From: Dehalococcoidia bacterium
GTDB taxonomy: Bacteria; Chloroflexota; Dehalococcoidia; Lucifugimonadales; CATOSD01
NCBI GenBank assembly: GCA_034422735.1
Contig: DAOUJL010000033.1
Span: 5,012-69,011, forward strand
Direction of reading: 5' to 3'
DNA length: 64,000 nucleotides
A program made the position numbers and the translations under genes. The notes beneath the pieces were generated by a model that made no database searches, was not told the DNA's origin, and was given only the letters and a program-made list of their open reading frames with translations. Below, one piece after another: positions 10,933-51,621 of this stretch (within the stretch, counting starts at the first letter, position 1; each line of letters begins with the position of its first letter).

Positions 10933-10942
10933 GGCAAAACTC

Positions 10943-13959: not shown

Positions 13960-14020
13960 TCGCGTAGACCTCCGTAGTAGCCTGCGCGCGGACTAGTCTG
14001 AGTCCGGCGCTGTCCGCTCA

Positions 14021-14029
14021 ATTGTAGCA
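14021..14029 (-). promoter_or_regulatory. extended -10 promoter element (TGCTACAAT) upstream of the aminotransferase operon
   Basis: Minus strand TG (14029..14028) + C + TACAAT (14026..14021), about 60 nt upstream of ATG 13959, which carries a GGAGG RBS. The same TGCTAnAAT motif recurs at 33879, 49404 and 51743. Confidence 0.4.
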
Positions 14030-14050
14030 CGCGATCCCGAGAGACATCGG

Positions 14051-15136: not shown

Positions 15137-15184
15137 CAGCCAGAAGCCCGCGAGGGGAACAGCTTATGATGGACTCCAAAGCAC

Positions 15185-15214
15185 TTGACCCGCGCGGTCA
15201 CATAAACTTACACT
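15185..15214 (+). promoter_or_regulatory. possible promoter of pncB
   Basis: -35 TTGACC (15185..15190), 18-nt spacer, -10 TACACT (15209..15214), 34 nt before ATG 15248. Confidence 0.3.
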
Positions 15215-15247
15215 GAAATCACTCGCCACTTAGGACGTGACTACGCC

Positions 15248-16648: not shown

Positions 16649-17217
16649 TGGCGCGCCTTCCATACATCGGCAGGAACGACCTTCCCGACGATAAGCGTCC
16701 GATCTTCGACCGGATCGCCGAGCGTCGTAGCGGCCCTGAATCCGGCGGAGCACTGCCCCACTCGTTCGCGCTTTTGCTCAACAGCCCCGATGCCGCGGAG
16801 GCAGTAGGCGCGCTTGGCGAGTACGTGCGATGGGGAAGTCCCTTGGACCCCGCCGCGAGAGAGATCGCCATTCTGGCCGCCGCGATGGAGATGGGCAGCG
16901 AATACGTGTGGCAACACCACGAGCCTGTCGCCCGCCGCGAGGGCGTGCGCGAGGAGACCATCGAGGCCATCCGCTCCGGCAGGGCGCCGATGGGCCTGCC
17001 CGCCAAGGAGGGTGTGTTCGCCCAGGCGGCACGCGAGATCGTTCGCAACGGCACGCTGACCGATCGTACCTTTCAGGCTATTCATCACCTGCTGGGCGCG
17101 GCCCTCACCGTCGATCTGGTCGTCGCGGTAAGCTACTACGTCATGCTGGCGAGGGCGCTAGGCTCCCTCGGCATCGACCTCGAAGACGGGCTCCGGTCCA
17201 CGCCTGGCCTTCCGTAG
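16648..17217 (+). CDS. carboxymuconolactone decarboxylase (AhpD-like) family protein
   Basis: 189 aa. The ATG overlaps the pncB TGA by 1 nt. All-helical CMD-like sequence (...REIAILAAAMEMGSEYVWQHHEPVARREG...). Confidence 0.7.
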   Translation: MARLPYIGRNDLPDDKRPIFDRIAERRSGPESGGALPHSFALLLNSPDAAEAVGALGEYVRWGSPLDPAAREIAILAAAMEMGSEYVWQHHEPVARREGVREETIEAIRSGRAPMGLPAKEGVFAQAAREIVRNGTLTDRTFQAIHHLLGAALTVDLVVAVSYYVMLARALGSLGIDLEDGLRSTPGLP

Positions 17218-21169: not shown

Positions 21170-22617
21170 TTATGCCAGCACGCGCGGCAGCCGGGTGCTC
21201 CCCATCAGGTAGCGGTCGATGCCGCGTGCCGCCTCTCTGCCCTCCGCGAGAGCCCACACGACCAGCGACTGGCCTCGTGACATGTCGCCCGCCGTGAACA
21301 CGCCCTCGACGTTCGTCATCATGTCGGCGTCTCTGCCCACGTTGCCGCGGGGATCCAAAGCCAGGCCCAGGTCGGTAGTAATGTCGCCGTGCTCCGGGTG
21401 CAGGAAGCCCATCGCCAACAACACCAGGTCCACGTCCAGGGCGAAGTCGCTGCCCGGCACCTCGAGCATGGCCGGCCGGCCCGTGTCGTCGGGAGGCCCC
21501 CACTCAAGCCTCACCCCGTTCAGTTTCTCCACCTTGCCCGACCCGGTGAAACTCCTGGTCAAGATGTTGTAGTCGCGAACGCCGCCTTCCTCATGTGAGG
21601 AAGAGGTGCGCAGTATGGCCGACCACTGCGGCCACGGGTTGTCAGGACGCCGCTCGACGGGCGGCTCAGGCAGCAACTCGAGCTGATAGACTATCTCGGC
21701 GCCCTGCCGATGCGCCGTTCCCAGACAGTCCGACCCGGTGTCGCCGCCGCCTAAGATAACCACGCGCTTGCCCTCGGCCGTGATGCGCTCGTCCGGGTCA
21801 ACGTGCTGCCCGGCGATTAACCTATTCTGCTGCGTCAGGTAGTCCATCGCGAAGTGCACGCCGTCAAGCTCGCGCCCTGGCACGGGCAGGTCACGCGGAA
21901 TCGTCGACCCGCCGGCGAGCAACAGCGCGTCGTAGCCGTCCCTCAGTTCGGAGATAGCGCAGTCCCGGCCCACGTAAACGCCCGTCCTGAACTCCACGCC
22001 CTCGTCGGCCATCTGGTCCACGCGGCGCTGTACGACGTACTTTTCCAGTTTGAAGTCCGGGATGCCGAGCCTGAGCAGGCCGCCCACGACCTCGTCGCGC
22101 TCGAATACAGTCACCCTGTGGCCGCTGGCGTTGAGTTGCTGCGCGGCCGCCAGCCCTGCCGGGCCCGACCCTACGACCGCAACTGTTCTTCCGGTGCGGG
22201 TCTTTGGCGGGTTCGGCTTGATCCATCCCTCGGCCCAGCCCCGGTCGGCGATCGATTTCTCGATGTGTTCGATTGTCACCGGGTCTTGGTTGATGGAGAG
22301 CACGCACGAAACCTCGCACGGCGCGGGACAAATGCGCCCCGTGAACTCCGGAAAGGCGTTGGTCTTATGCAGGGCGTCGAGCGCCTCACGCCACCGGCCC
22401 CTGTACACGTGGTCGTTCCAGTCCGGAATCAGGTTGCCCAGCGGACAGCCCATGTGGCAGAACGGAACCGAGCAGTTCATGCAGCGCGAACCCTGTTCAC
22501 GCGCCTGCTCCTCGCTCCACTTGTGGTAAATCTCGCCGAAGTGACGAATGCGCTCGCTTGCGGCGGCGCTCGGTATCGGCATCCGCCCGCTCTCTTTGAA
22601 CCCGGTGACTTTGCCCA

Positions 22618-22618
<1 letters not shown>
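21170..22618 (-). CDS. gltD: glutamate synthase small subunit (NAD(P)H-dependent)
   Basis: 482 aa. Fe-S Cys cluster CMNCSVPFCHMGCPLGN, FAD/NAD folds VAVVGSGPAGLAAA and VVILGGGDTGSDC. Confidence 0.92.
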
Positions 22619-27138
<4,520 letters not shown>

Positions 27139-28840: not shown

Positions 28841-29848
28841 TTACAGGTTGAACTGCGGGTCCATGTAGTCCTTCTCTTTGACGTACACCTGCAGACGGCC
28901 GCGCGTGCTGTCGGTGACGATGATGCGGTCCTGGTCGTCGACGGCGATTCCCACCGGGCGGTTGAAGCGGCCCATCGGCGTGATGTCCTCCACACGCCTG
29001 TAGGCCTTCGTGACGTCCGGGTTGGCCTCCACGACCTCTTTGGCCCAGTTCGAAAACTCGGTGGCGTCGCCGTACAGCGCCGTTATCACGTCGCCTTCCG
29101 GGCCGAATATCTGCACGCGCAGGTTGCCCCAGTCGACCACGTAAACGTCGCCCTCGGAGTCCACCGCGACGTCGGACGGGTGGTCCAGCTCACCGCCGTC
29201 CTCGCGCCCGCCGCCTCCAAAGCTCAGCAGGAACTCTCCGTCCGCGCTGAACTTCTGGACCCTGTCGTTGCCCCAGTCGGCGACGTACACGTTGCCGTCG
29301 CTGTCCAGCGCGATGCCCCACGGCTTGGAGAGTTGTCCGTTGCCGCCGCCGGAAGAGCCGAACGATGACAGAAAATCGCCGCCCTTCGAGAACTTCTGCA
29401 CCCTGTCGTTGCCCGCGTCCACCACGTACAGGTTGTCGTCCGCGTCGAACGCAAGGCCGGCCGGGCCGCGCATCAGGCCCTCGTCGCTACCCTCATCGCC
29501 CCACTGGCCTACAGTCTGCCCGTCCTCGTCAAACACCACGATGGAGTTTGAGTGCTCGTCAGAGCAGTACAGGTTGCCCTCGCCATCGACCGCCAGGCCT
29601 ACCGGCCAGACGAACTGCTCGCGACCGAAGTCGCCTATGAACTGCTGGTCGATGGTGAGCTTGCCGATTCGCTTGTTGGGCGCCACTACTCCGCCGGCCC
29701 CTTCCTGGCCCCGGCTGAGCACGTAGAGCACGCCCTCCGGGGCGGTGGCTACCGCCACGGGCTGCGTGAACCCGTTGCCCGCGGCTGCGTTGCGGCCGAC
29801 GGCGTGGCTGAAGCTCCAGGTCCTGCCGGCAACAGTTGTCGTTAGCAT
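28841..29848 (-). CDS. NHL-repeat beta-propeller protein
   Basis: About 335 aa from ATG 29848, with GGGGGA 6 nt upstream (a TTG at 29863 is also possible). Six repeats with ...YV(A/V)D.GNDRVQKF.... No signal peptide seen. Confidence 0.8.
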   Translation of the reverse strand: MLTTTVAGRTWSFSHAVGRNAAAGNGFTQPVAVATAPEGVLYVLSRGQEGAGGVVAPNKRIGKLTIDQQFIGDFGREQFVWPVGLAVDGEGNLYCSDEHSNSIVVFDEDGQTVGQWGDEGSDEGLMRGPAGLAFDADDNLYVVDAGNDRVQKFSKGGDFLSSFGSSGGGNGQLSKPWGIALDSDGNVYVADWGNDRVQKFSADGEFLLSFGGGGREDGGELDHPSDVAVDSEGDVYVVDWGNLRVQIFGPEGDVITALYGDATEFSNWAKEVVEANPDVTKAYRRVEDITPMGRFNRPVGIAVDDQDRIIVTDSTRGRLQVYVKEKDYMDPQFNL

Positions 29849-29889
29849 GTCGAATCCCCCCAATATGGTTGCAGGCCGCGGTGGAAATC

Positions 29890-33878: not shown

Positions 33879-33887
33879 TGCTAAAAT
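33879..33887 (+). promoter_or_regulatory. extended -10 element (TGCTAAAAT) upstream of the giant FtsX operon
   Basis: TG 33879..33880, TAAAAT 33882..33887, 34 nt before ATG 33921, which has an AGGAGG RBS. Confidence 0.4.
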
Positions 33888-33920
33888 TGCAGCACGCGCC
33901 TAGCCGGCGCCAGGAGGCCG

Positions 33921-36900
33921 ATGGTTCCCCTCAACACCCGCAGGCTGATCGTCAAACGCCTGTTAGACGATTGGAAGCTCTTGCTCAGTATCTTTCTGGG
34001 CTTTGTAATCACCACTACGCTGGTCGCGGGCGCGCCCGTCTACTTTCGCTCGCTTCAGAGGGTGAGCGTCAACACGGCCATCGACAGGGCCTCCGTCTTC
34101 TTCCTCAACTTCTTCGCCTACGCCCCGCACGTGCAGTTCGACAGGGACAACGTGCTGCTGAGCGAGTCCCATCTCGTCGACGCCATAGACCGGCACATCT
34201 CCGAGATATACAGGAGCCACGAGCGGTACATCCAGTCTCCCACCTTCCTCGTCGGCAAGCCCAACTCCCCGCTGCCCAACCAGCCCGGGGCCGCCGACCA
34301 GGTGTCCCGCGGATATGTCCAGTACCTTTCCAACATGGGCGGCCACGTCGAGTTTCTTTCCGGCCGCCTCCCTACGGACTCGCTGTCACAGGGACCGCGC
34401 GGCCCGGTATTCGAGGCCATGGTCGGCTCCAGGCAGGCGCGCGTGTTCGACCTCGAAGTCGGCGACGAGGTGGTGCTGACCCCCTCCCTCGGCGACCCTG
34501 TCCGCGTCACCGCGACGATAGCCGGCGTTATAGAAGCAATCGACCCACTGGACGAGTACTGGAGCCGCAACGCGGAGGCCTATCTCAACCCCGCACCCCT
34601 GGAGGAGGAGGTCGACGTCGAGGTAACCGTAGACCCGGCCGAGCCCCCGTTATCACTCTTCGTCACGCTCGAATCGCTGATTACGGGCGTGGGGGACGCC
34701 TATCCCGGCTCTGTGGCCAGCATGCACTGGAACGTGTTCATCGACAAGGAGCCGCTGAAGCGGTGGTCGATTCCGGATACCCGGGACCGGATCACGCAGG
34801 TAGAGAACGACTTCACGCAGGCGCTGCCCGGCGCGGCCGTGTTTACCGGCATATCCCGCCTGCTGGACAACTACGAGCGCCGCAGCTTCTTCACCGGCAT
34901 CCCATTACTGCTGCTCATCACCGTCATGCTCCTCACGGTGCTCTACTCCATCGCCATGATGGTGTCCTACCTGGTCCAGAGCCGCGAGGACGACGTTGCC
35001 CTGCTGCGAAGTCGCGGCGTTAGCGCGTTCCAACTGCTGCGGCTGTACGCCCTCGAGGGCGCCATTCTCGCCGTGACCGCCGCGGTGCTGGCGCCATTCC
35101 TCGCCATGGCCGTCGTGGCGCTCGCCGGCCTGCTGCCCTACTTCAGCGAGATAAAACAGAGCGTACTGCTTCCGATCGATCTCCACTGGTACCCGTTCGC
35201 CCTGTCCGCTGCGGTCGGATTCGTCTGCCTCGCCATGTTCGTGGTACCGGCTCTCATCGGCTCCAGGGCCGGGCTGATAGCCCACAAGCTGCGCTCGTCC
35301 CGCCCGCCGTCCGTGCCGCTGTTCCAGCGTTACTACGTCGACGTGGCAATACTCATAGTGGGCGGCCTCATCTTCTGGGAATTGCAGCAGCGGGGCCAGT
35401 TCGTCTCGGGCGGGCTGTTCGAGGACGTGCAGGTAAACGAGGCGATGTTGCTGGCGCCCGTGCTCTTCCTGGTCGCTGTCGCGCTGCTCTTCATGCGGCT
35501 GTTTCCGCTGTTCGTCCGATTCCTGAATGGCGACGCGCCGACGCTGCTGCACCTGCTCGCCGGCGTTACGGTGGCGGTGCTGGCCATCGGCGTCGTGCTG
35601 GACACGCTGGGCTCCGGCCTCACGGACTACGCGGCCCCGCTCGCCCTGCTCGCGGCCGCCGCCGCGGCGTACACGTACTCCCACCGGTCGGAGGGAGCCG
35701 TGTCGCGTGGGGCCGCAATGGTCGCCCAGGTCGCGGCGACGGCGCTGTTCATCCTTCGCGACCCTCCCTCGCCCGGCGAGGCCGCATTCATCCCGACAGT
35801 CGCGCTGGCGGCGCTCGTTCCGCTGCACCTGCTCTTTCTCGCCCTGCGCCACTTCGCCAGGACGTCGCCCGTCTGGGTGTCCATGGCGCTGCTGAGGATG
35901 GCCCGCAACCCGTTGCAGTACACCTGGCTGGTGCTGCTGCTGGTGCTGGTCACCGGGCTTGGCGTGCTCGCGACGACCGTTGGCGGCACTCTGAACCGCA
36001 GCTACGAGGAGCGCGTCCTATACGACACGGCCACCGACATTCGCGTGGCCGACATGCCCGGCTACATCGCCAGGGGCACAAGCGCCGTAAAGGAGACTTA
36101 CCTCCAGATCCCGGGAGTGACGCAGGTGTCGCTCGCGCTGCGCGGACAGGGGCTGGTGGGCACGACCGTCTCGGGCATTCACTTCGACCTGCTTGCGGTC
36201 GAATCCGACGATTTCCAGTACATGTCGTGGTACCGAGACGACTTCTCCGCCGCGCCTCTGAGCGGCGTCATGCGGTCGCTCCAGCCCATCTCGCGCCACG
36301 AGCCGCTAGTTCTGCCCCAGGACGCGGAGACGTTCGGCATGTGGGTCAAGCCCGGTGGAGAGTACTCCAACATGTTCCTGTGGGCCGCCATGCAGGACTC
36401 CACCGGAATCGTGAAGACCCTCTCACTCGGAGAGGTAGGCCCGGAGGAATGGCAGCTCATGAGCGGCCGGATGCCGTCCGGCATGGTGCCGCCCGTGGTG
36501 CTGGCCGCCATCCAGACCTACGAACCGGTCTTCGGCCCGACCGGAACCGCCGGCTCGCTGCTGATGGACGACATGCACGTCACGACCGGCAACGGCGACG
36601 ATTTCGTGTTGGTGGACGGCTTCGAGGGCCGCTCGAACTGGACTCCCCTGGCCACCTCGCCGCTCTCCACCGACAGCATCGCGCCGACGTCACAGGAGTT
36701 CCGCAGCGGCCAGGCGGCGGGCCTGTTCGTGTTCGGCAAGGACACCGACCGGGGAATCAGGGGCTTCTATCAGAGCCCAAGCGGCGGACCTCTTCCCGTG
36801 GTGGCAAGCTCCAGGTTCCTTGAGACGACCGGCGCCCGCGTTGGCGACGTGATGATTCTGGACGTAATGAGCCGACTCGTGCCGGTCCGTTTCACGAACC

Positions 36901-37577
36901 GCGTGAACTACTTCCCTACCATGACGTCACAGCGCAGCGGCTTTATTCTCACCGACCTGGACGACCTGCTGCGCCATCTGAACATTCTCAGCCCCACCAC
37001 CAGCTTCTACCCGAACGAGTTGTTCATCTCGGAAGCGCCCGGCGCGGGAGACTCGGTGAGCGAGACGATTCTGAGGCTGACGGGCACCACGGACCGCGTA
37101 TTCGACCGCGACGCCCGCCTGGAGGCCATCCGCCACGACCCGCTCATTACCGCGGGCTGGCGCGCCATGATGGCGCTTTCCCTGGGCCTGATAGTGTTTA
37201 CCGCCGGACTCGGGTATCTCATCTACCTCCTGGCATTCACCAACCGCGGACGCAACGAGATGGGCTTCCTTCAATCGCTGGGCATGACGGGACGCCAGGT
37301 GCTGGGGCTGCTCAGCATCGAGCACCTTGCCATAGTGCTGGTGGGTCTGGGCATCGGCACCTGGGCCGGTTTTCAGATGAGCTCCATCATGGTCTCGTCC
37401 GTCGCCGTGACCGAGTTGGGGGACCCGGTGGTGCCGCCTTTCGTGATGATGACGGACTGGCCTATGCTGGCGATCATCTACGCCACCACCGCGTCGATCT
37501 TCTTGCTGTCGACGCTGGCCCTGGCCAGGTCGATGCGGAACCTCGAACTCCACTCCATATCCAGGCTGGAGGGCTGA
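33921..37577 (+). CDS. giant double-module FtsX/MacB-type ABC permease (1218 aa), paralogue 1
   Basis: By eye there are two units of TM1 + large extracytoplasmic domain + 3 TM, for example ...SREDDVALLRSRGVSAFQLLRLYALEGAILAV... and ...RNEMGFLQSLGMTGRQVLGLLSIEHLAIVLVGLGIG.... They are joined by about 6 extra TM helices. The stop is 1 nt before the next start. Confidence 0.8.
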   Translation: MVPLNTRRLIVKRLLDDWKLLLSIFLGFVITTTLVAGAPVYFRSLQRVSVNTAIDRASVFFLNFFAYAPHVQFDRDNVLLSESHLVDAIDRHISEIYRSHERYIQSPTFLVGKPNSPLPNQPGAADQVSRGYVQYLSNMGGHVEFLSGRLPTDSLSQGPRGPVFEAMVGSRQARVFDLEVGDEVVLTPSLGDPVRVTATIAGVIEAIDPLDEYWSRNAEAYLNPAPLEEEVDVEVTVDPAEPPLSLFVTLESLITGVGDAYPGSVASMHWNVFIDKEPLKRWSIPDTRDRITQVENDFTQALPGAAVFTGISRLLDNYERRSFFTGIPLLLLITVMLLTVLYSIAMMVSYLVQSREDDVALLRSRGVSAFQLLRLYALEGAILAVTAAVLAPFLAMAVVALAGLLPYFSEIKQSVLLPIDLHWYPFALSAAVGFVCLAMFVVPALIGSRAGLIAHKLRSSRPPSVPLFQRYYVDVAILIVGGLIFWELQQRGQFVSGGLFEDVQVNEAMLLAPVLFLVAVALLFMRLFPLFVRFLNGDAPTLLHLLAGVTVAVLAIGVVLDTLGSGLTDYAAPLALLAAAAAAYTYSHRSEGAVSRGAAMVAQVAATALFILRDPPSPGEAAFIPTVALAALVPLHLLFLALRHFARTSPVWVSMALLRMARNPLQYTWLVLLLVLVTGLGVLATTVGGTLNRSYEERVLYDTATDIRVADMPGYIARGTSAVKETYLQIPGVTQVSLALRGQGLVGTTVSGIHFDLLAVESDDFQYMSWYRDDFSAAPLSGVMRSLQPISRHEPLVLPQDAETFGMWVKPGGEYSNMFLWAAMQDSTGIVKTLSLGEVGPEEWQLMSGRMPSGMVPPVVLAAIQTYEPVFGPTGTAGSLLMDDMHVTTGNGDDFVLVDGFEGRSNWTPLATSPLSTDSIAPTSQEFRSGQAAGLFVFGKDTDRGIRGFYQSPSGGPLPVVASSRFLETTGARVGDVMILDVMSRLVPVRFTNRVNYFPTMTSQRSGFILTDLDDLLRHLNILSPTTSFYPNELFISEAPGAGDSVSETILRLTGTTDRVFDRDARLEAIRHDPLITAGWRAMMALSLGLIVFTAGLGYLIYLLAFTNRGRNEMGFLQSLGMTGRQVLGLLSIEHLAIVLVGLGIGTWAGFQMSSIMVSSVAVTELGDPVVPPFVMMTDWPMLAIIYATTASIFLLSTLALARSMRNLELHSISRLEG

Positions 37578-37578
37578 T

Positions 37579-40500
37579 TTGTTCCAGCTCATCTACCTGG
37601 TATCGAGAGCTATCGCCGCCTGGCCGCTGGTCGTCCGCCGCAGCCTCGCCCACTGGCGCCTGCTGTCCACGGTCGTGGTGGGCGTGGTGCTGGCATCGGC
37701 AGTGATGTCCGGCACCGTCATCTACTACGACGCGTTGAGAGAGCTCGCGCTCAAGAGCACGCTCGCCCGGCTTACCGAAGACGAGGCCAACATCGTGGTC
37801 AAGGCCGACCGCGGCCCCACCACGGTCGAGGAATTCGCGAAGGTCGCCCGAACGGTGGACGCGGAGGTGGACGCGAGGGCCGCCTGGTTCCTCGAGGACC
37901 GCGTGATGGGCGCCAAGACGGCGACGTTCTTCCTGTCCCCGGTCGGTGATGAGGCAGGCGCGGGCCAGGACAACGCGCGCGCCTACTTCGCGTTCGTGCC
38001 TACGCTGGACGAGCAGATCCGAATCGTGAGCGGCGGCTGGGGCGCGCCGTCGGCCCCGAGCCCTCGCGGACAGCCGCTGCACCTGCAGGCGATTGTCCCG
38101 GCGGACGCCGCCGAGCTGTTCGGAGTCGGCATCGGGGACAGCCTGTCCGCGGTGCCGTACTGGAACGACGCCATTCCCTACGCCACCGTTACTATTTCCG
38201 GCATTTTCGAACGCACCGGCCCGGACGAGTTCTGGCACCTCGACACCGCCGTGCTTGCCGCCTCCACCTCCGGCAACTTCCGCACGATCCCGTTCTTCCT
38301 CACGAGGGAGGCCTACTTCGACACCCTCGGCGCTTCGTTCATCGACATGGACAGCACCTACGCCTGGCTGCTCCAGGTGGACCAGTCCACGCTGGACGCT
38401 CGCAACGCCTGGATTGCCAGAAGCGGTCTCGACACGATGGAGAGCCGCCTGTCCCGCAACCTGTTCAGCTACCGCCAGATAACGGAGCTCGAGGACGCTC
38501 TCGCCGACTACGACCGGCGTCTCTTCTTCAGCAAGCTGCCCATGTTCGTCGTCCTCGTGCTGATCGCGGTGGTCATCCTCTACTACGTCGTGACCATCTC
38601 GTCCCTCGTGGTCGAGCAGCAGCGCGGCGAGATAGCCCTGCTGCGCAGCAGAGGCGCGAGCTCCGCGCAGATCCTCGCCGTATTCGTGCTAGAGGGTCTG
38701 ACCATCTCTGTGCTCGCCGCCGTCGCCTCTCCTCTGATCGCGGCGTTCCTGATAAGCATCCTCGGCTACACTCCCGCGTTCTCCGACCTGAGCGGTGGGG
38801 ACAGGCTGGACGTGGCGATTTCCGGCGGCGCTTTCGCCATGGGCGCGCTCGGCGGCCTTCTCAGCTTCGCGGCCCTGCTCATTCCGGCCGTCCAGGCGTC
38901 CAAGGTCGGCGTAACCCGCCACAGGCAGGAGGCCGCGAGACCCACCGCGCAGCCTTTCTTCCTGCGCTACTATCTCGACGTCCTTCTGCTGGTCATCAGC
39001 GTCGTGCTATTCAGGCAGCTATCGGACCAGGGATCCGTGGTCGCCAGCAGCGTCTTTGGCGAGCTTGTGGTCAACCAAGCGCTGCTGGCAGTGCCCGCGC
39101 TCGTGCTCGTGGCCGTCGCTATGGTGCTGTTGCGGCTCTTCCCGCTGGCGATCCGCTTCCTGAGCGGCGACTCCCCCTCGCTGCTGCATCTCGTGGCTGG
39201 CGCGGCCGCCGCCATACTCGCGCCCTCTATAGTGGTGCGCGCCATCAACAACGGCGAGCCGCTGACCTGGATCGCACAGCTCGCCGCGCTGGCGGCGCTC
39301 GTGGCGGCATACTGGGCAACGGCCAGGACCGACGCCCCGCTGAGGCGATGGGCCGGAGTGGCCGCGCAGGCCGTCCTCGTGGCTGTCCTGATATCAGTCG
39401 GGCCGACCCTGCCGATGCCCCAGGTCTTCATTCCCATCCTGGTGGCCATTCCGATCGCCCAGGTGGCCTACCGGCTGCTGCACGCCTACGGGCTGAACGC
39501 CCCGGCGGGCTTCTCCATGGGTATGTGGCAGATGGCCCGCAGACCCACCCACTACGCTCGCCTGTCGCTGCTGCTGGTGCTGATGGCCGGACTCGGAATC
39601 GTGGCCGCCAGCTTCGGCGGCACGCTCGAGCGCAGCTTCGACGAGCGCGCCCGCTACTCCTCCGGCGCCGACCTGCGGCTGGAAGGCGTAATCCTGAACA
39701 CCCGGGGCCGGAGCGTCTCGGCCGTGGACGAATACCTCGCGCTGCCGGGCGTGTCGGTGGTCGGGCCGGCCTTCCGCGGGGCGGGCAGCGACCTGTCCGA
39801 GCTGCTGGGCGAAAGCTACACCATGGTGGCCGTCGATACCAGCGTGGTGAGCGAAGTCGGCTGGTTCCGGGAAGACTTCGCCGACCAGCCGATGCCCGAA
39901 CTCCTCGCCCGGCTCGAGCACCCCAGCCTGCCCGCCGGGTTGCCGCTGCCCGACGAGGCATCCGAGCTCTGGCTCGTCATCAAGACCGACAGGCCCCAGC
40001 CCGACGTCGGCGTTATCGCTCGCCTCAAGGACGCCAACGGACGCTACTACACCTACATCATGGGGCCGCTGGACTCGACCCAGTGGGAGCGAATGGCGGT
40101 GCCGCTGTTCCGTCGAGACGGAAGGGTTTTCAGCGGCAGGCGGCAGCTTCTGACTCCGCAGGTGCCCATGGAGCTCGTCTCGGTAAGCGTAAACAAGTTC
40201 GACGGGCGGGGCAGGCTCCGGGCCGGCACTATCTCCATAAGCCGGATCAGCGCTTTCACGCCCGAAGGCGAACAGGTCCTGGAATCGTTCGACGACGTGT
40301 ACGGCTGGAGCATCATCCGGGCCGCGCCGGAGTCCGTGTCCGACGCCATTCAACCAACCAACTCGTCGTTCGAAGGTGACACCGCCGCGGCCCAGTTCAT
40401 CTGGACGGAGGGCAACCCGCTGGTGAGCCGCGGCATGTTCTACGGCCCGCCCATAACCCCGGTGTCCGTGCTCGCCAGCGGGCTGTTCCTCAGGGAAACC

Positions 40501-41259
40501 GGCCACCGCGTGGGCGATACGTTCGAGGTGTCGGTGCAGGGCCACCGCCTGCCCGTCCACATAATCGAGAAGCTGGACTTCTTCCCCACGCTGGACACCT
40601 TCAACAGGCTGTTCCTGGTGTCCGACCTCAGGGCGGTCGCGGCCCTCGCGAACCTGGACGTGACCGCCGGCGAGCTGCGTCCCAACGAGATGTGGATCGA
40701 GACGGCCATGAACGGCTCGGAGCGCGAGGAGTTGGTCGGAATCCTCACGGACGACCCGCCGTTCCCGTCCCGCAGGGTGCACGACACCTTGCAGAATCTC
40801 GAGGAATCGCAGGTAGACCCACTCGTTCAGGCCGGCTGGCGCGCGCTGCTGTTCATGGCCTTCACCGCCGTACTCATTCTCAGCGGCCTGGGTTTCCTGG
40901 TGCACGCCTACGTGTCGTTCAGAAGCCGCGAGATGGAGTTCGCGCTGATGCGTACCATCGGATTCTCCACGCGCCAGTTGACCACCCTGATATGGCTGGA
41001 GCAGGCGCTCATCATTGTCGCCGGCCTCGCGCTCGGCACCTGGATGGGCGGACGCATCGGCGCGATCATAATGCCGTTCCTCAGCAACGACGACCAGGGC
41101 AGCCAGGTGCTGCCGCCGTTCATACTCGAGGTCAACTGGACGACGCTGGCGATAACCTACGCAATTATGGCCGTGGCGTTCACGCTCATCATAACCGGTA
41201 TGATATGGTTCGTACGTCGAATCTCCCTCCAGCGCATCCTGCGCCTCGGGGAAATGTAG
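37579..41259 (+). CDS. giant double-module FtsX/MacB-type ABC permease (1226 aa), paralogue 2
   Basis: TTG start with GGAGGG 5 nt upstream. Same architecture as paralogue 1 (...QQRGEIALLRSRGASSAQILAVFVLEGLTISV... and ...SREMEFALMRTIGFSTRQLTTLIWLEQALIIVAGLALG...). Confidence 0.8.
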   Translation: MFQLIYLVSRAIAAWPLVVRRSLAHWRLLSTVVVGVVLASAVMSGTVIYYDALRELALKSTLARLTEDEANIVVKADRGPTTVEEFAKVARTVDAEVDARAAWFLEDRVMGAKTATFFLSPVGDEAGAGQDNARAYFAFVPTLDEQIRIVSGGWGAPSAPSPRGQPLHLQAIVPADAAELFGVGIGDSLSAVPYWNDAIPYATVTISGIFERTGPDEFWHLDTAVLAASTSGNFRTIPFFLTREAYFDTLGASFIDMDSTYAWLLQVDQSTLDARNAWIARSGLDTMESRLSRNLFSYRQITELEDALADYDRRLFFSKLPMFVVLVLIAVVILYYVVTISSLVVEQQRGEIALLRSRGASSAQILAVFVLEGLTISVLAAVASPLIAAFLISILGYTPAFSDLSGGDRLDVAISGGAFAMGALGGLLSFAALLIPAVQASKVGVTRHRQEAARPTAQPFFLRYYLDVLLLVISVVLFRQLSDQGSVVASSVFGELVVNQALLAVPALVLVAVAMVLLRLFPLAIRFLSGDSPSLLHLVAGAAAAILAPSIVVRAINNGEPLTWIAQLAALAALVAAYWATARTDAPLRRWAGVAAQAVLVAVLISVGPTLPMPQVFIPILVAIPIAQVAYRLLHAYGLNAPAGFSMGMWQMARRPTHYARLSLLLVLMAGLGIVAASFGGTLERSFDERARYSSGADLRLEGVILNTRGRSVSAVDEYLALPGVSVVGPAFRGAGSDLSELLGESYTMVAVDTSVVSEVGWFREDFADQPMPELLARLEHPSLPAGLPLPDEASELWLVIKTDRPQPDVGVIARLKDANGRYYTYIMGPLDSTQWERMAVPLFRRDGRVFSGRRQLLTPQVPMELVSVSVNKFDGRGRLRAGTISISRISAFTPEGEQVLESFDDVYGWSIIRAAPESVSDAIQPTNSSFEGDTAAAQFIWTEGNPLVSRGMFYGPPITPVSVLASGLFLRETGHRVGDTFEVSVQGHRLPVHIIEKLDFFPTLDTFNRLFLVSDLRAVAALANLDVTAGELRPNEMWIETAMNGSEREELVGILTDDPPFPSRRVHDTLQNLEESQVDPLVQAGWRALLFMAFTAVLILSGLGFLVHAYVSFRSREMEFALMRTIGFSTRQLTTLIWLEQALIIVAGLALGTWMGGRIGAIIMPFLSNDDQGSQVLPPFILEVNWTTLAITYAIMAVAFTLIITGMIWFVRRISLQRILRLGEM

Positions 41260-41287
41260 TGACCCTGCCAAAGGGATGGGAGTGAAG

Positions 41288-42178
<891 letters not shown>

Positions 42179-42179
42179 C

Positions 42180-42893
42180 GTGAACAGATACCAGCGGCTG
42201 ACCGCCGCCATCGACGTGACCCGGACCTACCGTCTCGGCTCAGAGGAAGTCACCGCCCTACGCGGCGTCAACCTCACCGTGTTGCCCGGCCAGTTCGTGG
42301 CGATAGTCGGCAGATCCGGCTCGGGCAAGACAACGCTTCTCAACATCCTGGCCGGCCTGGACAAGCCCACCTCCGGCGACGTGCTCTTCGAGGAGCGCAG
42401 CGTCAACGACATGGACGAACATGAACTCCTGGAGATTCGCCGCCACAAGCTCGGCTTCGTCTTCCAGTCGTTCGGCCTGCTGCCGCTCCTTTCCGCGCTG
42501 GAGAACGTGGAGCTCCCCCTGCGCATAGCCGGCGTGAAGGGCCGCGACCGGGAGGATAGGGCGCGTGAGGCGCTGGAGATGGTCGGCCTCTGGCCGCGTG
42601 CGCGCCACCGGCCCTACGAGCTGTCCGGCGGAGAGCAGCAGCGCGTCGCAATCGCGCGCGCGATAGTGAACAACCCGCCGCTCCTGCTCGCGGACGAGCC
42701 CACCGGCGAGCTCGACTCCGTGAACGCCAGGTCCATATTCGGGCTGTTCAAGCAGATGGTCCAAGAGCGCGGCATAAGCGTGCTCGCCGCCACCCACGAC
42801 TCCACGCTGCTGGAGATGGCCGACGAGGTCAAGGAAATCCGCGACGGCGTGCTGTTGGACCAGGCGGCGCAGGGACTACGCTTCCGCGACTAG
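42180..42893 (+). CDS. ABC transporter ATP-binding protein (MacB/LolD-type), second copy
   Basis: 237 aa. GTG start 1 nt after the previous stop, with GGAGGAG 7 nt upstream. Walker A GRSGSGKTT, LSGGEQQRVAIA, LLLADEPTGELD. Confidence 0.9.
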   Translation: MNRYQRLTAAIDVTRTYRLGSEEVTALRGVNLTVLPGQFVAIVGRSGSGKTTLLNILAGLDKPTSGDVLFEERSVNDMDEHELLEIRRHKLGFVFQSFGLLPLLSALENVELPLRIAGVKGRDREDRAREALEMVGLWPRARHRPYELSGGEQQRVAIARAIVNNPPLLLADEPTGELDSVNARSIFGLFKQMVQERGISVLAATHDSTLLEMADEVKEIRDGVLLDQAAQGLRFRD

Positions 42894-49587: not shown

Positions 49588-51621
49588 ATGACGGTCGCCG
49601 CGCCGAGGTTTGATTATCGTGTCGCCCTTATCGGGTTGTTTTTCGTCACAGCTGCCCTGACGTGGTCATGCGGTGGTGAAACGCAACCCACCGCACCCAC
49701 GATTGCGCCCACCGCCGCTAGCACGCCTACTACATCGCCCACCGCGACCGTCCCAACCGCAACGCCCGCACCCACGACGACGCCTGTGCCTGCCACCAAC
49801 ATACCATTCCCTACCCCGACTCCTTCCCCGACACCCAACCCCGCCATGGACGTCTTCGGGTCCGCCATGGTGAAGATGTCGGACGGTGGCGGCGCCGCAA
49901 TCGAGATCAACGCCAACCTTGAGGCGATATCAGACGGACAAAGAGTCCAGATTCCCATTTCGTACACCGGAGTCTTTGCCATCGGCGGCCTTAACTGGTC
50001 GGACGTTGTCGTCGCTGCGCCAGTTCTCGGGATAGAGTCCCGGGTTATGACGCTCTCGGCCCCGTTCCTCACGACCGTTCATGTTCTCGACGAGTCGTCG
50101 GGCAAATGGGAAGCGAACTACGGTCACTCGCCCAATTCGATAGCGTTTGATAAGCTCTTCGCGCCGCGTGCTTACGAGCTTACTGAGTTGGTTCTGTCCG
50201 GCAAGGAAGAGATTAACGGCATAGACGCCACAGTCTTCACTGCCAAGTTGCGTAACTTCGCGGTCGTCGGCTCGCAGGGCAATTTAGACGTCGTCTACTG
50301 GATAGGTGTGGATGATGGTCTGCCACTCAAAGTGTCCGCCTCCGGTACCCTGGATGTCGATGCTGACGTGGTGCTGATTGGCGAAACGGTCGCGGAGTCT
50401 GCGTCGGTCGAAATAACGGCTACTATATTCGACCACGGAAAGCACGTAGACGTTGTATCCCCCACCCTGGGCCTTCAACGTTTTCAGCATGAGGCGCTGC
50501 TGCTGAATGACGGGCGCGTACTCGTAGGGGGCGGATTCACAGGAATCTCCAACAACAATGTCGTCGTCCCTTTTCCAGTAGGCTTCGTCCAGACATATGA
50601 TCCGTCTGCGGACATGTGGTCGTTCCAGGATCCCATGGAAAACGCCGGCTTCTTGTACTCGGCCCTCAAGCTGGGTGACGGCAAAGTTCTGTTTGTCGGC
50701 CTGTCAGGCGACGAGAACTTAGTCGAACCATTCGCGAGCCTGTTCGACCCTGGGGAAAATTCATGGGAAGATGCCCCTGCACCTTCCACGACTCGTGGTT
50801 TTCCTGAGACCCTTCTACTTGATGACGGACGCGTTCTTCTCTTAGGTGGTTGGGACTTTACGTCATCGGACACCACATTCACGCGAGAGGTGGTGAAGGC
50901 GGTCGAGGTTTACGACCCCCAGACCGGCGAATGGCGCCAGGCTGCTCCGCTGACCCAGGACTTCCAAGAACCCCCACACTACACTCTGTTGAACGACGGG
51001 CGGGTGATTGCGATGGGAGTCGGCGGCGACATGTTTGCTGAAAGGACAGCTTTCGCCGAATTGTATGACCCCAATTCCGATTCTTGGACACCCATCAGCA
51101 GCGCTGATGCCCACTACTCGCTCAACAACGCCCTCAGCTTGGCCGATGGCAGAGTACTCGTGCTCGGGTCGCTTCCCAGATGGATTTCCAATCAACGCCC
51201 GGACGGAAGCTCCGGGATCGTCACCTTGCCAGACGGAAGCCGGCTGACCGCCGCTCAGGTAGCAGAGCGATTCCCTGCGGCGAAGATCTACGACCCGGCC
51301 ACCGACACATGGTCTGCCGCCGGGGGTATGACTCACACACGGAACAGCGCCTCGCTCGCTCTGCTTCCCGACGGTAGGGTTCTGGCAGCCGGCGGTGAGA
51401 ACTACTGGTCCAAGGACTCCTTATCCTACTCCACGACCGAGATTTTCGATCCGCAGACCAACTCGTGGTCGCCGGGGCCTAACCTGACCGATCTGCGAGC
51501 CGGTGCCACCGCGACGCTAATGCCAGATGGCAGGGTGCTGCTGGTCGGGGGCATGGGGCTTGTGCAGGACATCGAGGAGATATACCCCCATGCAACCGCG
51601 GAAATAGTCGATCCCGGTTAG
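49588..51621 (+). CDS. secreted/lipid-anchored Kelch-repeat beta-propeller protein with Pro/Thr linker
   Basis: 677 aa. Signal sequence ending ...AALTWSC. P/T-rich linker (PTAPTIAPTAASTPTTSPTATVPTATPAPTTTPVP...). At least seven repeats of the type LLNDGRVLVGGG / LLPDGRVLAAGG with ...YDP.T..W. Confidence 0.8.
   Translation: MTVAAPRFDYRVALIGLFFVTAALTWSCGGETQPTAPTIAPTAASTPTTSPTATVPTATPAPTTTPVPATNIPFPTPTPSPTPNPAMDVFGSAMVKMSDGGGAAIEINANLEAISDGQRVQIPISYTGVFAIGGLNWSDVVVAAPVLGIESRVMTLSAPFLTTVHVLDESSGKWEANYGHSPNSIAFDKLFAPRAYELTELVLSGKEEINGIDATVFTAKLRNFAVVGSQGNLDVVYWIGVDDGLPLKVSASGTLDVDADVVLIGETVAESASVEITATIFDHGKHVDVVSPTLGLQRFQHEALLLNDGRVLVGGGFTGISNNNVVVPFPVGFVQTYDPSADMWSFQDPMENAGFLYSALKLGDGKVLFVGLSGDENLVEPFASLFDPGENSWEDAPAPSTTRGFPETLLLDDGRVLLLGGWDFTSSDTTFTREVVKAVEVYDPQTGEWRQAAPLTQDFQEPPHYTLLNDGRVIAMGVGGDMFAERTAFAELYDPNSDSWTPISSADAHYSLNNALSLADGRVLVLGSLPRWISNQRPDGSSGIVTLPDGSRLTAAQVAERFPAAKIYDPATDTWSAAGGMTHTRNSASLALLPDGRVLAAGGENYWSKDSLSYSTTEIFDPQTNSWSPGPNLTDLRAGATATLMPDGRVLLVGGMGLVQDIEEIYPHATAEIVDPG

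What the first reader, a model, noticed from the sequence alone, without database searches (positions are those of the whole stretch)
33921..42893. Operon of two giant (1218 and 1226 aa) double-module FtsX/MacB-type permeases plus two distinct ABC ATPases, without any fusion or outer-membrane partner
Each permease contains two complete MacB-like units (TM1, an extracytoplasmic domain of about 260-370 aa, then the conserved 3-TM FtsX core). About six additional TM helices join the two units. This makes the proteins roughly 1.5-2 times the size of characterised tandem FtsX proteins. The second extracytoplasmic domains carry extra beta-rich inserts. In FtsX-2 an example is ...ELWLVIKTDRPQPDVGVIARLKDANGRYYTYIMGPLDSTQWERMAVPL.... 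In FtsX-1 it is ...FGMWVKPGGEYSNMFLWAAMQDSTGIVKTLSLGEVGPEEWQL.... These look like jelly-roll or carbohydrate-binding modules. The four genes are tightly coupled (1-nt gaps, RBS inside the preceding gene), implying a stoichiometric complex. A pseudo-dimeric permease should need two nucleotide-binding domains (NBDs). Two different permeases with two different ATPases therefore suggests either a large hetero-assembly or two specialised machines. MacB-type systems act by mechanotransmission (export/extraction, lipoprotein or peptide handling, cell-wall hydrolase activation). The substrate here is unknown. As far as I know, this architecture is uncharacterised.
Basis: partly seen in the sequence, partly recalled or inferred. 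Interest (0 to 1): 0.7.

Follow-up and report, generated by a model that had tools for sequence, protein, structure and literature searches.

The report
Paired giant YbbP-like ABC permeases
This is a real four-gene unit, conserved in uncultured marine Dehalococcoidia (Chloroflexota), that encodes two oversized 14-helix MacB/YbbP-type membrane "mechanotransmission" proteins and two ATPases; it is a new, unstudied variant of a known transporter class and its substrate is unknown.

Summary
Four co-directional ORFs are present: X1 (33921-37577, 1218 aa), X2 (37579-41259, 1226 aa), A1 (41276-42178) and A2 (42180-42893).

- **Paralogy.** X1 and X2 are collinear paralogs at 29% identity. A1 and A2 are LolD/MacB-type ATPases at 50% identity.
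- **X1 model.** An AlphaFold model (pLDDT 82.7) shows 14 TM helices: two 4-TM FtsX modules, each with a large ectodomain, joined by six extra helices.
- **Closest solved structure.** It is E. coli YbbP (10 TM, 804 aa; Foldseek E 1e-15).
- **Ectodomain 2 insert.** It carries a roughly 160-aa, 11-strand beta-sandwich. The best fold matches are PLAT/LH2 domains of lipases, and they are weak. No CBM was identified.
- **Not a mis-fusion.** 118 of the best 120 X1 homolog clusters are 1200-1269 aa. All named ones are SAR202, Dehalococcoidia or Chloroflexi.
- **Synteny.** The permease-permease-long ATPase-short ATPase order recurs in relatives with unrelated flanks, including a distant 10-TM lineage.
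- **Variation.** TM7-10 are absent from 48 of the best 120 X2 homolog clusters.
- **A1 tail.** A1 has a conserved C-terminal tail that looks AbrB/SpoVT-like, below threshold.
- **Literature.** No paper on this family was found.

Verdict: an uncharacterised Type VII ABC machine, a new variant of a known kind. Substrate and subunit assembly remain unresolved.

The parts
33879..33920 (+). Short upstream intergenic region with a possible extended -10 (TGCTAAAAT, 33879-33887) and the RBS AGGAGG (33912-33917) ahead of the X1 ATG
   Evidence: Read directly from the sequence. The consensus promoter scan did not call a -35/-10 pair here, so the promoter is only a suggestion.
33921..37577 (+). X1: 1218-aa tandem FtsX / Type VII ABC permease with 14 TM helices
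   Evidence: ORF. Two FtsX stretches. AlphaFold pLDDT 82.7. Best structural match is YbbP 9ge6_A, E 1e-15. 118 of the best 120 homolog clusters are 1200-1269 aa.
34047..34880 (+). X1 ectodomain 1 (residues 43-320), alpha/beta and MacB/LolC-like in the model
   Evidence: Secondary structure. The N half aligns with LolC/LolE/MacB and their isolated periplasmic domains (5udf, 5lj8). No Pfam hit on its own.
34881..35297 (+). X1 FtsX core 1 (TM2-TM4) with the coupling segment DDVALLRSRG
   Evidence: Pfam FtsX; NCBIfam LolC/ADOP partial hits at residues 327-454; R365 and G366 are invariant across the family.
35319..35864 (+). X1 linker bundle TM5-TM10 (residues 467-648). TM7-TM10 (35541-35864) is the four-helix addition that 10-TM relatives lack.
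   Evidence: Model helices. Alignment A2 shows about 110 residues missing from the roughly 1100-aa relatives. Loop charges fit the positive-inside rule.
35994..37145 (+). X1 ectodomain 2 (residues 692-1075), MacB-like periplasmic fold plus an insert
   Evidence: AlphaFold model of residues 655-1218, pLDDT 84.5. Foldseek matches to LolE, MacB, YtrF and the periplasmic domains 3ftj and 5udf.
36309..36785 (+). X1 beta-sandwich insert in ectodomain 2 (residues about 797-955, 11 strands).
   Evidence: Strands listed. Local Foldseek matches to PLAT/LH2 domains: 1hpl E 1.7e-3 prob 0.98, 3v92, 6u7m. W844, W907 and F901 are conserved family-wide. No Pfam hit.
37146..37535 (+). X1 FtsX core 2 (TM12-TM14)
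   Evidence: Pfam FtsX at residues 1087-1207; model helices 1074-1119, 1124-1161 and 1180-1199.
37579..41259 (+). X2: 1226-aa paralog of X1 with the same architecture (TTG start)
   Evidence: ORF. 29% identity to X1, collinear over the full length, E 6e-148. Two FtsX stretches. Homologs fall into about 1220-1250 aa and about 1110-1120 aa forms.
38953..39498 (+). X2 linker TM region (residues about 459-640). Residues about 496-643 are missing from 10-TM X2 orthologues.
   Evidence: Hydropathy. tblastn in L013-L020 covers X2 residues 10-495 and 644-1225 only. 48 of the best 120 X2 homolog clusters are 1050-1159 aa.
39946..40473 (+). X2 beta-rich insert in ectodomain 2 (residues about 790-965), homologous to the X1 beta-sandwich. 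It contains the second quoted peptide.
   Evidence: Alignment with X1. Only a sub-threshold Pfam FlaA hit, E 0.13.
41276..42178 (+). A1: 'long' LolD/MacB-type ABC ATPase, 300 aa (296 aa if it starts at the ATG at 41288)
   Evidence: ABC_tran E 3e-32. LolD 223 bits, below the 307.75 cutoff. PDB relatives include LolD, MJ0796, MacB and YbbA. Canonical Walker A/B, signature and H-loop motifs can be read.
42047..42169 (+). A1 C-terminal tail (residues about 258-298), possibly an AbrB/SpoVT/MazE-like swapped-hairpin domain
   Evidence: Pfam MazE_antitoxin E 5.9e-4, 20.2 bits, below the 24.7 cutoff. A profile of the tails hits SpoVT and AbrB best, at E 0.03-0.1. The motif vD..GRvQiP...L...P is conserved in Chloroflexota and Streptomyces long ATPases.
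42180..42893 (+). A2: 'short' LolD/MacB-type ABC ATPase, 237 aa, GTG start, no tail
   Evidence: ABC_tran E 3e-37. LolD 232.6 bits, below cutoff. 50% identical to A1. Orthologues form a class distinct from A1.

Best explanation
The four genes encode an uncharacterised Type VII (MacB/FtsX-fold) ABC system of a Dehalococcoidia (SAR202-like) bacterium.

Shown or directly modelled:
- X1 and X2 are each a single-chain pseudo-dimer of the YbbP kind: two FtsX modules, each with a stalk-mounted ectodomain.
- They are enlarged by four extra membrane helices (TM7-10) and by a beta-sandwich in ectodomain 2.
- A1 and A2 are catalytically intact LolD-type ATPases.

Inferred by analogy with MacB, LolCDE and YbbAP:
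- Two ATPase domains dock on the two coupling segments of each permease, ALLRSRG after TM2 and EMGFLQSLG after TM12.
- ATP-driven closure zips the stalk helices and moves the ectodomains, so the work is done on the outer face of the membrane rather than by transport through a channel.

Most speculative step (about 0.3 on its own): the job is to pull a hydrophobic or lipid-anchored molecule out of the outer leaflet, as YbbAP and LolCDE do. The beta-sandwich would serve as the membrane, envelope or partner contact.

The two permeases work in one pathway, possibly side by side. Which ATPase dimer serves which permease (A1-A1, A2-A2 or A1-A2) is unresolved.
For: - **Fold and class.** Two FtsX domains per permease. 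The full-length model (pLDDT 82.7) matches YbbP best, over the whole chain (9ge6_A, E 1e-15, TM 0.52 on the target). BceB follows over the whole chain, and LolE, LolC, MacB, HrtB and YtrF per half.
- **Topology.** 14 helices fit the positive-inside rule.
- **ATPases.** LolD, MacB, YbbA and FtsE are the nearest models and structures. All catalytic motifs are present.
- **Co-function.** The order permease-permease-long ATPase-short ATPase is kept in 10 related loci at 54-98% identity with different flanks. It is also kept in a distant 10-TM Chloroflexota lineage: 1095 + 1106 aa permeases with 292 + 231 aa ATPases. The permease pair stays adjacent at 43% identity even where the ATPases are elsewhere.
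- **Mechanism.** The YbbAP-TesA paper describes 2 YbbA: 1 YbbP, coupling helices after TM2 and TM8, stalk-helix bundling on ATP binding, and extraction of hydrophobic compounds (PMC12646458).
- **Lipid hint.** PLAT/LH2 domains of lipases and lipoxygenase are the only non-transporter fold matches.
Against: - No substrate evidence of any kind exists. No conserved neighbour such as a TesA-like hydrolase, adaptor, lipoprotein chaperone or two-component system was seen.
- The PLAT match is weak (E about 1e-3 to 3e-2) and beta-sandwiches are promiscuous in fold searches. Two sub-threshold Pfam FlaA hits in the same region point elsewhere.
- One relative carries X1 alone, next to pspA, so the pair is not obligatory as neighbours.
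- Subunit stoichiometry was not modelled, because no multimer prediction was available.
- Model coordinates were not inspectable, so no hydrophobic pocket was checked.
Confidence: 0.55

Rival explanations
1. FtsEX-like signal transmitter. The ectodomains, with the beta-sandwich as docking site, bind and allosterically switch an extracytoplasmic enzyme such as an envelope or S-layer hydrolase. Nothing is extracted or transported.
For: Same superfamily and same mechanotransmission logic (reviews listed). The ectodomains are large and modular. A relative even carries fn3 domains, as expected for protein-protein or envelope contacts. No transport partner genes are present.
Against: No hydrolase or coiled-coil activator gene is conserved next to the module. 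The FtsE model scores below cutoff, 189-209 bits against 264.85. Characterised FtsX proteins are 4-TM with a small ectodomain. The best structural match is YbbP, not FtsX.
Confidence: 0.2
2. MacB-like exporter of a monoderm. The system expels a peptide, glycolipid, siderophore or toxin from the membrane or outer face without needing an adaptor or outer-membrane duct.
For: MacB and Spr0694-0695 are among the fold matches. The ATPases score 197-210 bits on the MacB model. Chloroflexota are regarded as monoderm (background knowledge), so no TolC would be needed.
Against: Gram-positive MacB-like pumps still use a membrane-fusion protein (Spr0693, PMC5768738, listed), and none is encoded here. No biosynthetic cluster is adjacent. 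The tandem YbbP-like design differs from homodimeric MacB.
Confidence: 0.13
3. BceAB-like antimicrobial-peptide sensing and target-protection module.
For: BceB and PsdB are tandem FtsX permeases and appear among sequence and fold matches.
Against: BceB has one ectodomain (TM7-8) and 10 TM helices, and is genetically coupled to a BceRS two-component system. Here there are two ectodomains and 14 TM helices, and no kinase or regulator is adjacent in the window or in L001 and L021. The module looks like a widely conserved core gene set of an oligotrophic marine lineage, not an accessory resistance island.
Confidence: 0.07
4. Assembly alternative, cutting across the functional readings above. X1 and X2 are not independent machines. 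They form one hetero-supercomplex in which the AbrB-like tails of two A1 subunits pair and tie the two transporters together.
For: The permease pair stays adjacent across deep divergence. AbrB/SpoVT-type domains fold only as dimers (background knowledge), and the tail is conserved. The TM7-10 bundle could be a lateral interface.
Against: The tail assignment is below threshold. TM7-10 is dispensable in many X2 orthologues. A Streptomyces locus has two permeases and only one long ATPase, so A1 homodimers on a single permease explain the tail equally well. X1 occurs alone in one genome region.
Confidence: 0.15
5. Artefact: two or more genes fused by a sequencing or assembly error, or chance ORFs in GC-rich DNA.
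For: GC-rich DNA (65%) produces many long spurious ORFs, for example the 688-aa antisense ORF at 39394-41460.
Against: Full-length collinear homologs of the same length occur in hundreds of clusters and in chromosome-level assemblies. The single-chain model is confident, and a YbbP structure of the same design exists.
Confidence: 0.01

Closest known systems
E. coli YbbAP(-TesA), Type VII ABC transporter (PDB 9GE6/9GE7/9GE8; PMC12646458)
   Same: A single-chain tandem FtsX permease with two Porter/Sabre-type ectodomains, after the first helix of each module. It is internally pseudo-symmetric with linker helices between the modules, and is powered by separate LolD-like ATPases. It is the best whole-chain structural match (E 1e-15).
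   Different: - YbbP has 804 aa and 10 TM helices (two linker helices); X1 and X2 have about 1220 aa and 14 TM helices (six linker helices).
- YbbP has no beta-sandwich insert.
- YbbAP has one permease and one ATPase gene (a YbbA homodimer); here there are two of each.
- No TesA-like partner gene lies nearby.
- Only about 11% sequence identity, and no curated YbbP-type sequence model is matched.
LolCDE lipoprotein extractor
   Same: FtsX core, the fold of each half including the periplasmic domain, and the ATPase type. LolD is the top NCBIfam and PDB relative.
   Different: LolC and LolE are separate 4-TM proteins of diderms that work with LolA/LolB. The lolCE model scores 17-33 bits against a cutoff of 362. 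The host is presumably monoderm.
BceAB / PsdAB peptide-antibiotic resistance transporters
   Same: Tandem FtsX permease in one chain, with 2 ATPases per permease. Whole-chain fold match.
   Different: One ectodomain only, 10 TM helices, about 646 aa, and a partner histidine kinase BceS. None of these holds here.
MacB (MacAB-TolC) and Gram-positive MacAB-like Spr0694-0695
   Same: Fold of each half, the mechanotransmission architecture and the ATPase family.
   Different: MacB is a homodimer of 4-TM chains with a fused ATPase, and needs an adaptor (MacA or Spr0693). Here there is no fusion and no adaptor. Pfam MacB_PCD is not detected in X1 or X2.
About 1100-aa '10-TM' tandem FtsX permeases of Chloroflexota, and roughly 900-1100-aa ones of Actinomycetota (all unstudied; annotated only as 'FtsX-like permease family protein')
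   Same: The Chloroflexota ones are true family members. They have both ectodomains, the beta-sandwich region and the same four-gene module. A Streptomyces locus has two large FtsX permeases plus a long ATPase with the same tail motif.
   Different: They lack TM7-10. The Streptomyces permeases are only marginally similar in sequence and come with a single ATPase.

Membership tests
Type VII ABC transporter superfamily (MacB/FtsX fold) | C-terminal three-helix FtsX domain (PF02687) | tested here: met
   Two stretches in each permease, 49.1 and 61.3 bits against a cutoff of 25.5.
Type VII ABC transporter superfamily (MacB/FtsX fold) | Topology of TM1, large extracytoplasmic domain, then TM2-4, with long stalk helices | tested here: met
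   Hydropathy. Model helices 18-56, 310-354, 664-703 and 1074-1119 extend beyond membrane length. Positive-inside rule holds.
Type VII ABC transporter superfamily (MacB/FtsX fold) | Ectodomain with the MacB/LolC periplasmic (Porter/Sabre) fold | tested here: met
   Foldseek matches to the isolated periplasmic domains 3ftj, 5udf, 5lj8 and 5c59, and to full LolC/E and MacB. This is met by predicted structure only; Pfam MacB_PCD is not detected.
Type VII ABC transporter superfamily (MacB/FtsX fold) | Cognate LolD/MacB/FtsE-type ATPase | tested here: met
   A1 and A2 in the operon. Top models are LolD, YbbA, MacB and FtsE. PDB relatives.
Type VII ABC transporter superfamily (MacB/FtsX fold) | ATP-driven mechanotransmission to the ectodomains | not testable with these tools
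   Needs biochemistry or structures in two nucleotide states.
YbbP-type tandem permease | Two FtsX modules and two ectodomains in one chain | tested here: met
YbbP-type tandem permease | 10 TM helices with a two-helix linker (TM5-6) | tested here: not met
   14 helices with a six-helix linker in X1, and in X2 by alignment. The feature is met in the roughly 1100-aa relatives.
YbbP-type tandem permease | One ATPase gene (YbbA homodimer) and a TesA-type hydrolase partner | tested here: not met
   Two distinct ATPase genes. No SGNH/TesA-like gene among the neighbours.
LolCDE | Match to the curated lolCE / LolC / LolE / LolD models at cutoff | tested here: not met
   17-33 bits against 362-540 for the permeases. 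223-233 bits against 307.75 for the ATPases.
FtsEX | 4-TM FtsX of about 300 aa with an FtsE equivalog | tested here: not met
   The permeases are 1218 and 1226 aa. The FtsE model gives 189.8 and 209.2 bits against 264.85.
BceAB-type | Single ectodomain between TM7 and TM8, with an adjacent BceRS-like two-component system | tested here: not met
   Two ectodomains. No kinase or regulator among the neighbours.
MacAB-type efflux pump | Membrane-fusion (HlyD-family) adaptor gene, and an ATPase fused to the permease in MacB proper | tested here: not met
   Separate ATPases. No adaptor within about 10 kb.
ADOP duplicated orphan permease (TIGR03434) | Match to the subfamily model | tested here: not met
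   19.9 bits against a cutoff of 622.3.
SpoVT/AbrB (MazE_antitoxin, PF04014) domain, for the A1 tail | Pfam gathering score, or a significant match to a solved AbrB/SpoVT domain | tested here: inconclusive
   20.2 bits against 24.7 (E 5.9e-4 on the fragment). A profile of the tails ranks SpoVT and AbrB first but at E 0.03-0.1. The motif pattern is conserved.
PLAT/LH2 or carbohydrate-binding module, for the ectodomain-2 insert | Significant fold or sequence match to the domain family | tested here: inconclusive
   PLAT domains of lipases and 5-LOX at E 1.7e-3 to 3e-2, prob 0.89-0.99, about 140 aligned columns. No CBM match, and no Pfam hit except sub-threshold FlaA.

The most novel reading that the evidence does not exclude
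X1, X2, A1 and A2 assemble into one hetero-oligomeric envelope machine that has no characterised counterpart. Two different 14-TM Type VII transporters sit side by side and are tied together on the cytoplasmic face by pairing of the AbrB-like tails of A1. Their PLAT-like ectodomain modules hand a lipidic or lipid-anchored envelope component (for example an S-layer anchor or glycolipid) from one to the other. This would be a lineage-specific envelope-biogenesis system of monoderm Chloroflexota, including the abundant deep-ocean SAR202 group.
Probability: 0.12. Interest if true: 0.75.

Novelty: new variant of a known kind. Interest (0 to 1): 0.5.

Why it matters
Type VII ABC systems perform key envelope tasks: lipoprotein sorting, control of cell division hydrolases, toxin and antibiotic efflux, and lipid extraction. 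Only a handful of architectures have been studied, and almost all come from Proteobacteria and Firmicutes.

This module is a conserved, self-contained and clearly different design:
- paired paralogous tandem permeases;
- a six-helix linker;
- a beta-sandwich on the second ectodomain;
- two ATPase classes, one with a possible dimerising tail.

It occurs in Dehalococcoidia/SAR202-type bacteria, which are abundant in the dark ocean and whose cell envelope is essentially unknown. Working it out would extend the structural repertoire of the superfamily and could give a first handle on envelope biogenesis in this lineage. The natural indel of TM7-10 among X2 orthologues also gives a ready-made comparison for asking what the extra helices do.

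Tried and rejected
- **Genome scans with diverse alignments.** The single-protein scan worked but reached only Dehalococcoidia MAGs, so the phylum-wide distribution was not mapped.
- **Taxonomy from cluster members.** The listing of cluster members gave almost no taxonomy.
- **Pfam on excised regions.** Pfam on ectodomain 1, ectodomain 2 and the two inserts found nothing except FlaA at E 0.13. An earlier attempt failed on a frame error.
- **Sequence search of the PDB.** The permeases gave only weak TM-core hits.
- **Internal N-module versus C-module similarity.** It is no longer detectable by BLAST.
- **Promoter, terminator and RNA scans.** The promoter/terminator scan gave nothing above shuffled expectation. 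Rfam found nothing in the window.
- **Literature.** Searches for SAR202 + FtsX, Type VII ABC + Chloroflexi, FtsX + 14 transmembrane, and ABC3 + TMSs found no paper on this family.
- **Rosetta-stone fusions.** Longer relatives showed only fn3 domains in one of them.
- **Readings rejected.** Assembly fusion; membership of LolCDE, FtsEX, BceAB, MacAB or ADOP; orthology of the Streptomyces permease pair to X1/X2, because BLAST scores are marginal.

Full report
**1. The observation**

The window is GC-rich throughout, 59-69%. Four co-directional ORFs occupy 33921-42893:
- X1: 33921-37577, 1218 aa, ATG start.
- X2: 37579-41259, 1226 aa, TTG start.
- A1: 41276-42178, 300 aa.
- A2: 42180-42893, 237 aa, GTG start.

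The X1/X2 and A1/A2 junctions have 1-nt gaps, with GGAGG-type ribosome-binding sites inside the upstream gene. The X2/A1 gap is 16 nt. It is 28 nt if A1 starts at the ATG at 41288, which has the better-spaced RBS and matches orthologue N-termini.

Pfam finds two FtsX stretches in each permease and nothing else. It finds ABC_tran in A1 and A2.

**2. Anatomy**

X1 and X2 are whole-length collinear paralogs: 29% identity, E 6e-148. A1 and A2 are 50% identical.

Hydropathy and an AlphaFold model of X1 residues 1-1200 agree. The model was built from 56 homologs and has mean pLDDT 82.7 and pTM 0.72.
- Module 1 helices: 18-56, 310-354, 369-402 and 424-459.
- Linker helices, six in all: 467-491, 512-536, 541-561, 567-589, 593-613 and 623-648.
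- Module 2 helices: 664-703, 1074-1119, 1124-1161 and 1180-1199.

Loop charges follow the positive-inside rule for an N-in, 14-TM topology. Ectodomain 1 (residues 43-320) is alpha/beta.

Ectodomain 2 (residues 692-1075) has alpha/beta elements flanking an 11-strand beta-sandwich at about 797-955. The X2 peptide lies in the homologous region. From the order of secondary-structure elements, the sandwich sits between the first alpha/beta unit and the rest of the MacB-like domain. This is an inference, because coordinates could not be inspected.

**3. Fold comparison**

- The C-terminal half (pLDDT 84.5) matches LolE, LolC, MacB, YtrF, Spr0695, HrtB, YbbP and BceB at E 4e-10 to 1e-4. It also matches the isolated periplasmic domains of MacB and LolE.
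- The full-length model matches E. coli YbbP best and end to end: 9ge6_A, E 1e-15, TM-score 0.52 on the target.
- BceB also matches end to end. LolC/E and MacB each match one half.
- The only non-transporter matches are local ones of about 140 columns to the PLAT/LH2 beta-sandwich of pancreatic lipase, lipoprotein lipase and 5-lipoxygenase (E 1.7e-3 to 3e-2, probability 0.89-0.99).
- Pfam sees nothing in either ectodomain or in the excised inserts. The exceptions are two sub-threshold hits to the same part of the FlaA profile, one in X2 and one in a relative.

The insert is therefore a beta-sandwich. 'Carbohydrate-binding module' is not shown, and 'PLAT-like' is only a lead.

**4. The ATPases**

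Both have intact Walker A, Q-loop, signature, Walker B/catalytic Glu and H-loop motifs. Their nearest curated models and solved structures are LolD, YbbA, MacB, FtsE and MJ0796. All curated models score below the equivalog cutoffs.

A1 belongs to a distinct 'long' class. Members share a two-residue Q-loop insertion (WQQTSRN) and a conserved C-terminal tail, EEF.lvD..GRvQiP.e...L......v.l.P. The class includes orthologues in other Chloroflexota and a Streptomyces ATPase that is 50% identical.

The tail resembles the SpoVT/AbrB/MazE swapped-hairpin domain:
- Pfam MazE_antitoxin gives E 5.9e-4 and 20.2 bits, against a cutoff of 24.7.
- A profile of the tails ranks SpoVT and AbrB first in the PDB, at E 0.03-0.1.

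This is suggestive and below threshold. Such domains fold as dimers (background knowledge). If the assignment is right, two A1 chains must meet, either on one permease or between two.

**5. Relatives and synteny**

- *X1 homologs.* X1 has 465 homolog clusters in the word-indexed search. Of the best 120, 118 are 1200-1269 aa at 51-99% identity. All named ones are SAR202, Dehalococcoidia or Chloroflexi.
- *Source organism.* A genome scan returned 18 loci, all Dehalococcoidia MAGs. Several are chromosome-level, and the closest is 98% identical. The window therefore comes from an uncultured Dehalococcoidia bacterium, and the long ORFs are not assembly fusions.
- *Gene order.* X1-X2-A1-A2 is kept in ten of the loci at 54-98% identity, with unrelated flanking genes. 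At 43% identity (L013-L020) the X1-X2 pair is still adjacent, but no cognate ATPase lies within 7 kb downstream. One genome region has X1 alone, followed by pspA.
- *Wider family.* An exhaustive HMMER search found 3232 representative clusters at E <= 1e-3 and 638 at E <= 1e-30. Most are about 1085-1150 aa and match in two blocks that skip X1 residues about 537-645. The alignment shows they lack exactly TM7-TM10 while keeping TM5-6, both ectodomains and the beta-sandwich region.
- *X2 length forms.* X2 orthologues come in both forms at the same identity level: 67 long and 48 short among the best 120. TM7-10 is therefore a dispensable, repeatedly gained or lost addition.
- *Age of the module.* A distant Chloroflexota member (P0456, 1095 aa) sits in the same four-gene module: 1095 + 1106 aa permeases, then 292 + 231 aa ATPases. 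Its long ATPase has the A1-type tail. The 2+2 module is therefore old.
- *Outside the phylum.* A Streptomyces locus has two large FtsX permeases (1064 and 906 aa) and one long ATPase with the same tail. Its permeases are only marginally similar to X1 and X2, so this is an analogy in organisation, not shown orthology.
- *Extra modules.* One X2-like relative carries fn3 domains in ectodomain 1, so the ectodomains accept extra beta-sandwich modules.

**6. Neighbours**

- Upstream of the operon: a luciferase-like monooxygenase, an NHL-repeat protein, DUF1800, Cu/Zn superoxide dismutase and an enolase-superfamily enzyme.
- Downstream: thymidylate kinase (opposite strand), an AAA/R3H protein, PdxS and a TPR protein.

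None recurs next to the module in relatives. No membrane-fusion adaptor, TesA-like hydrolase, two-component system or hydrolase activator is associated. The module is self-contained.

**7. How it most likely works**

*Shown.* The proteins have the Type VII ABC fold in the YbbP-like single-chain form. There are two coupling segments per permease, ALLRSRG after TM2 and EMGFLQSLG after TM12. These are conserved by module, not by paralog. Two competent LolD-type ATPases are present.

*Inferred from the YbbAP, MacB and LolCDE literature (PMC12646458).* Two ATPase domains bind each permease. ATP-driven dimerisation zips the four stalk helices and moves the ectodomains, so work is done on the outer face.

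*More speculative.* By analogy with YbbAP and LolCDE, and with the weak PLAT-like hint, the work may be extraction of a hydrophobic or lipid-anchored molecule from the outer leaflet. The persistent adjacency of two paralogous permeases across deep divergence argues that they act in one pathway.

The ATPase assignment is open:
- The dimer-forming tail and the single-ATPase Streptomyces locus lean towards A1 homodimers.
- The conserved co-occurrence of both ATPase classes in Chloroflexota and the intrinsic N/C asymmetry of the permeases would suit A1-A2 heterodimers.

**8. Comparison with known systems and novelty**

The system works like YbbAP, LolCDE and MacB. It fails the membership tests for every characterised family.
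- It scores far below the LolC/E, LolD, FtsE and ADOP cutoffs.
- It has no adaptor (MacAB).
- It has two ectodomains and no kinase (BceAB).
- It has 14 rather than 10 helices, two ATPase genes and no TesA partner (YbbAP).

Four literature searches found no study of this family. Databases call its members only 'FtsX-like permease family protein' or 'ABC transporter permease'. It is best rated a new variant of a known kind: common in databases, never studied, and with several distinctive features.

Interest is moderate at 0.5. A transporter specialist would find the design noteworthy but not paradigm-breaking. The host lineage is uncultured and its envelope is unknown.

**9. Limits**

- No multimer prediction was available.
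- Model coordinates could not be inspected.
- There is no taxonomic profile beyond what database names and one genome scan gave.
- The PLAT-like and AbrB-like assignments rest on sub-threshold or weak matches.

Noticed in passing
window 59639-63280 (+): A third giant tandem FtsX permease: 1213 aa, TTG start, two FtsX stretches plus a MacB_PCD hit, and many hydrophobic segments between the modules. It is unrelated to X1 and X2 beyond the FtsX cores (BLAST E 0.009). No ATPase gene is adjacent. It is preceded by an M48 peptidase on the opposite strand and followed by a DNA polymerase III delta'-like ORF that runs off the window.
   Followed up: partly
window 42047-42169 (A1 residues about 258-298): The long ATPase carries a conserved C-terminal tail with an AbrB/SpoVT/MazE-like motif (vD..GRvQiP...L...P). 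The tail is shared with long ATPases next to giant FtsX permeases in other Chloroflexota and in Streptomyces. All matches are below threshold.
   Followed up: partly
X2 orthologues; L013-L020 about 12750-16090; window 38953-39498: A natural length polymorphism. About 40% of the best X2 homolog clusters (48 of 120) lack TM7-TM10 and are about 1110-1120 aa, at the same identity level as the 14-TM forms. X1 homologs almost always keep the four helices.
   Followed up: partly
L002 / L011 (same contig), genes after 11660: In one Dehalococcoidia MAG the X1 orthologue (62% identity) stands alone. It is followed by a 65-aa ORF, pspA (PspA_IM30), PspAA and a PAS/GAF sensor kinase. This may link it to membrane stress, or it may be coincidence.
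   Followed up: no
P0124, P0126, P0130, P0135, P0137, P0142, P0146 (X1-like, 1336-1553 aa); P0201 (X2-like, 1521 aa): Some relatives have ectodomain 1 enlarged by 150-350 residues. P0201 carries two fibronectin type III domains there. The others have no Pfam match in the extra part.
   Followed up: partly
L022 (Streptomyces sp., GCA_040302585.1) 9001-16652: An actinobacterial locus with similar organisation: two large FtsX permeases (1064 and 906 aa), an 88-aa ORF and a 319-aa long ATPase with the A1-type tail. It sits beside PknG-like kinase, PP2C and VWA genes, and could serve as a tractable proxy.
   Followed up: partly
window 33921-37577, residues R461-D474 and R526: A strongly conserved motif, SRPP..P.FQRYYLD, lies at the cytoplasmic start of TM5. 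D474 in TM5 and R526 and F528 in TM6 are invariant across X1, X2 and the 10-TM relatives. These may form a functional charged pair in the linker helices.
   Followed up: no
window 22618-27138 (-) and 21170-22618 (-): Large and small subunits of glutamate synthase (1506 aa and 482 aa), abutting each other. This is ordinary housekeeping context.
   Followed up: no
window 49588-51621 (+) and 28841-29863 (-): A 677-aa Kelch-repeat protein and a 340-aa NHL-repeat beta-propeller protein. Their functions are unknown.
   Followed up: no
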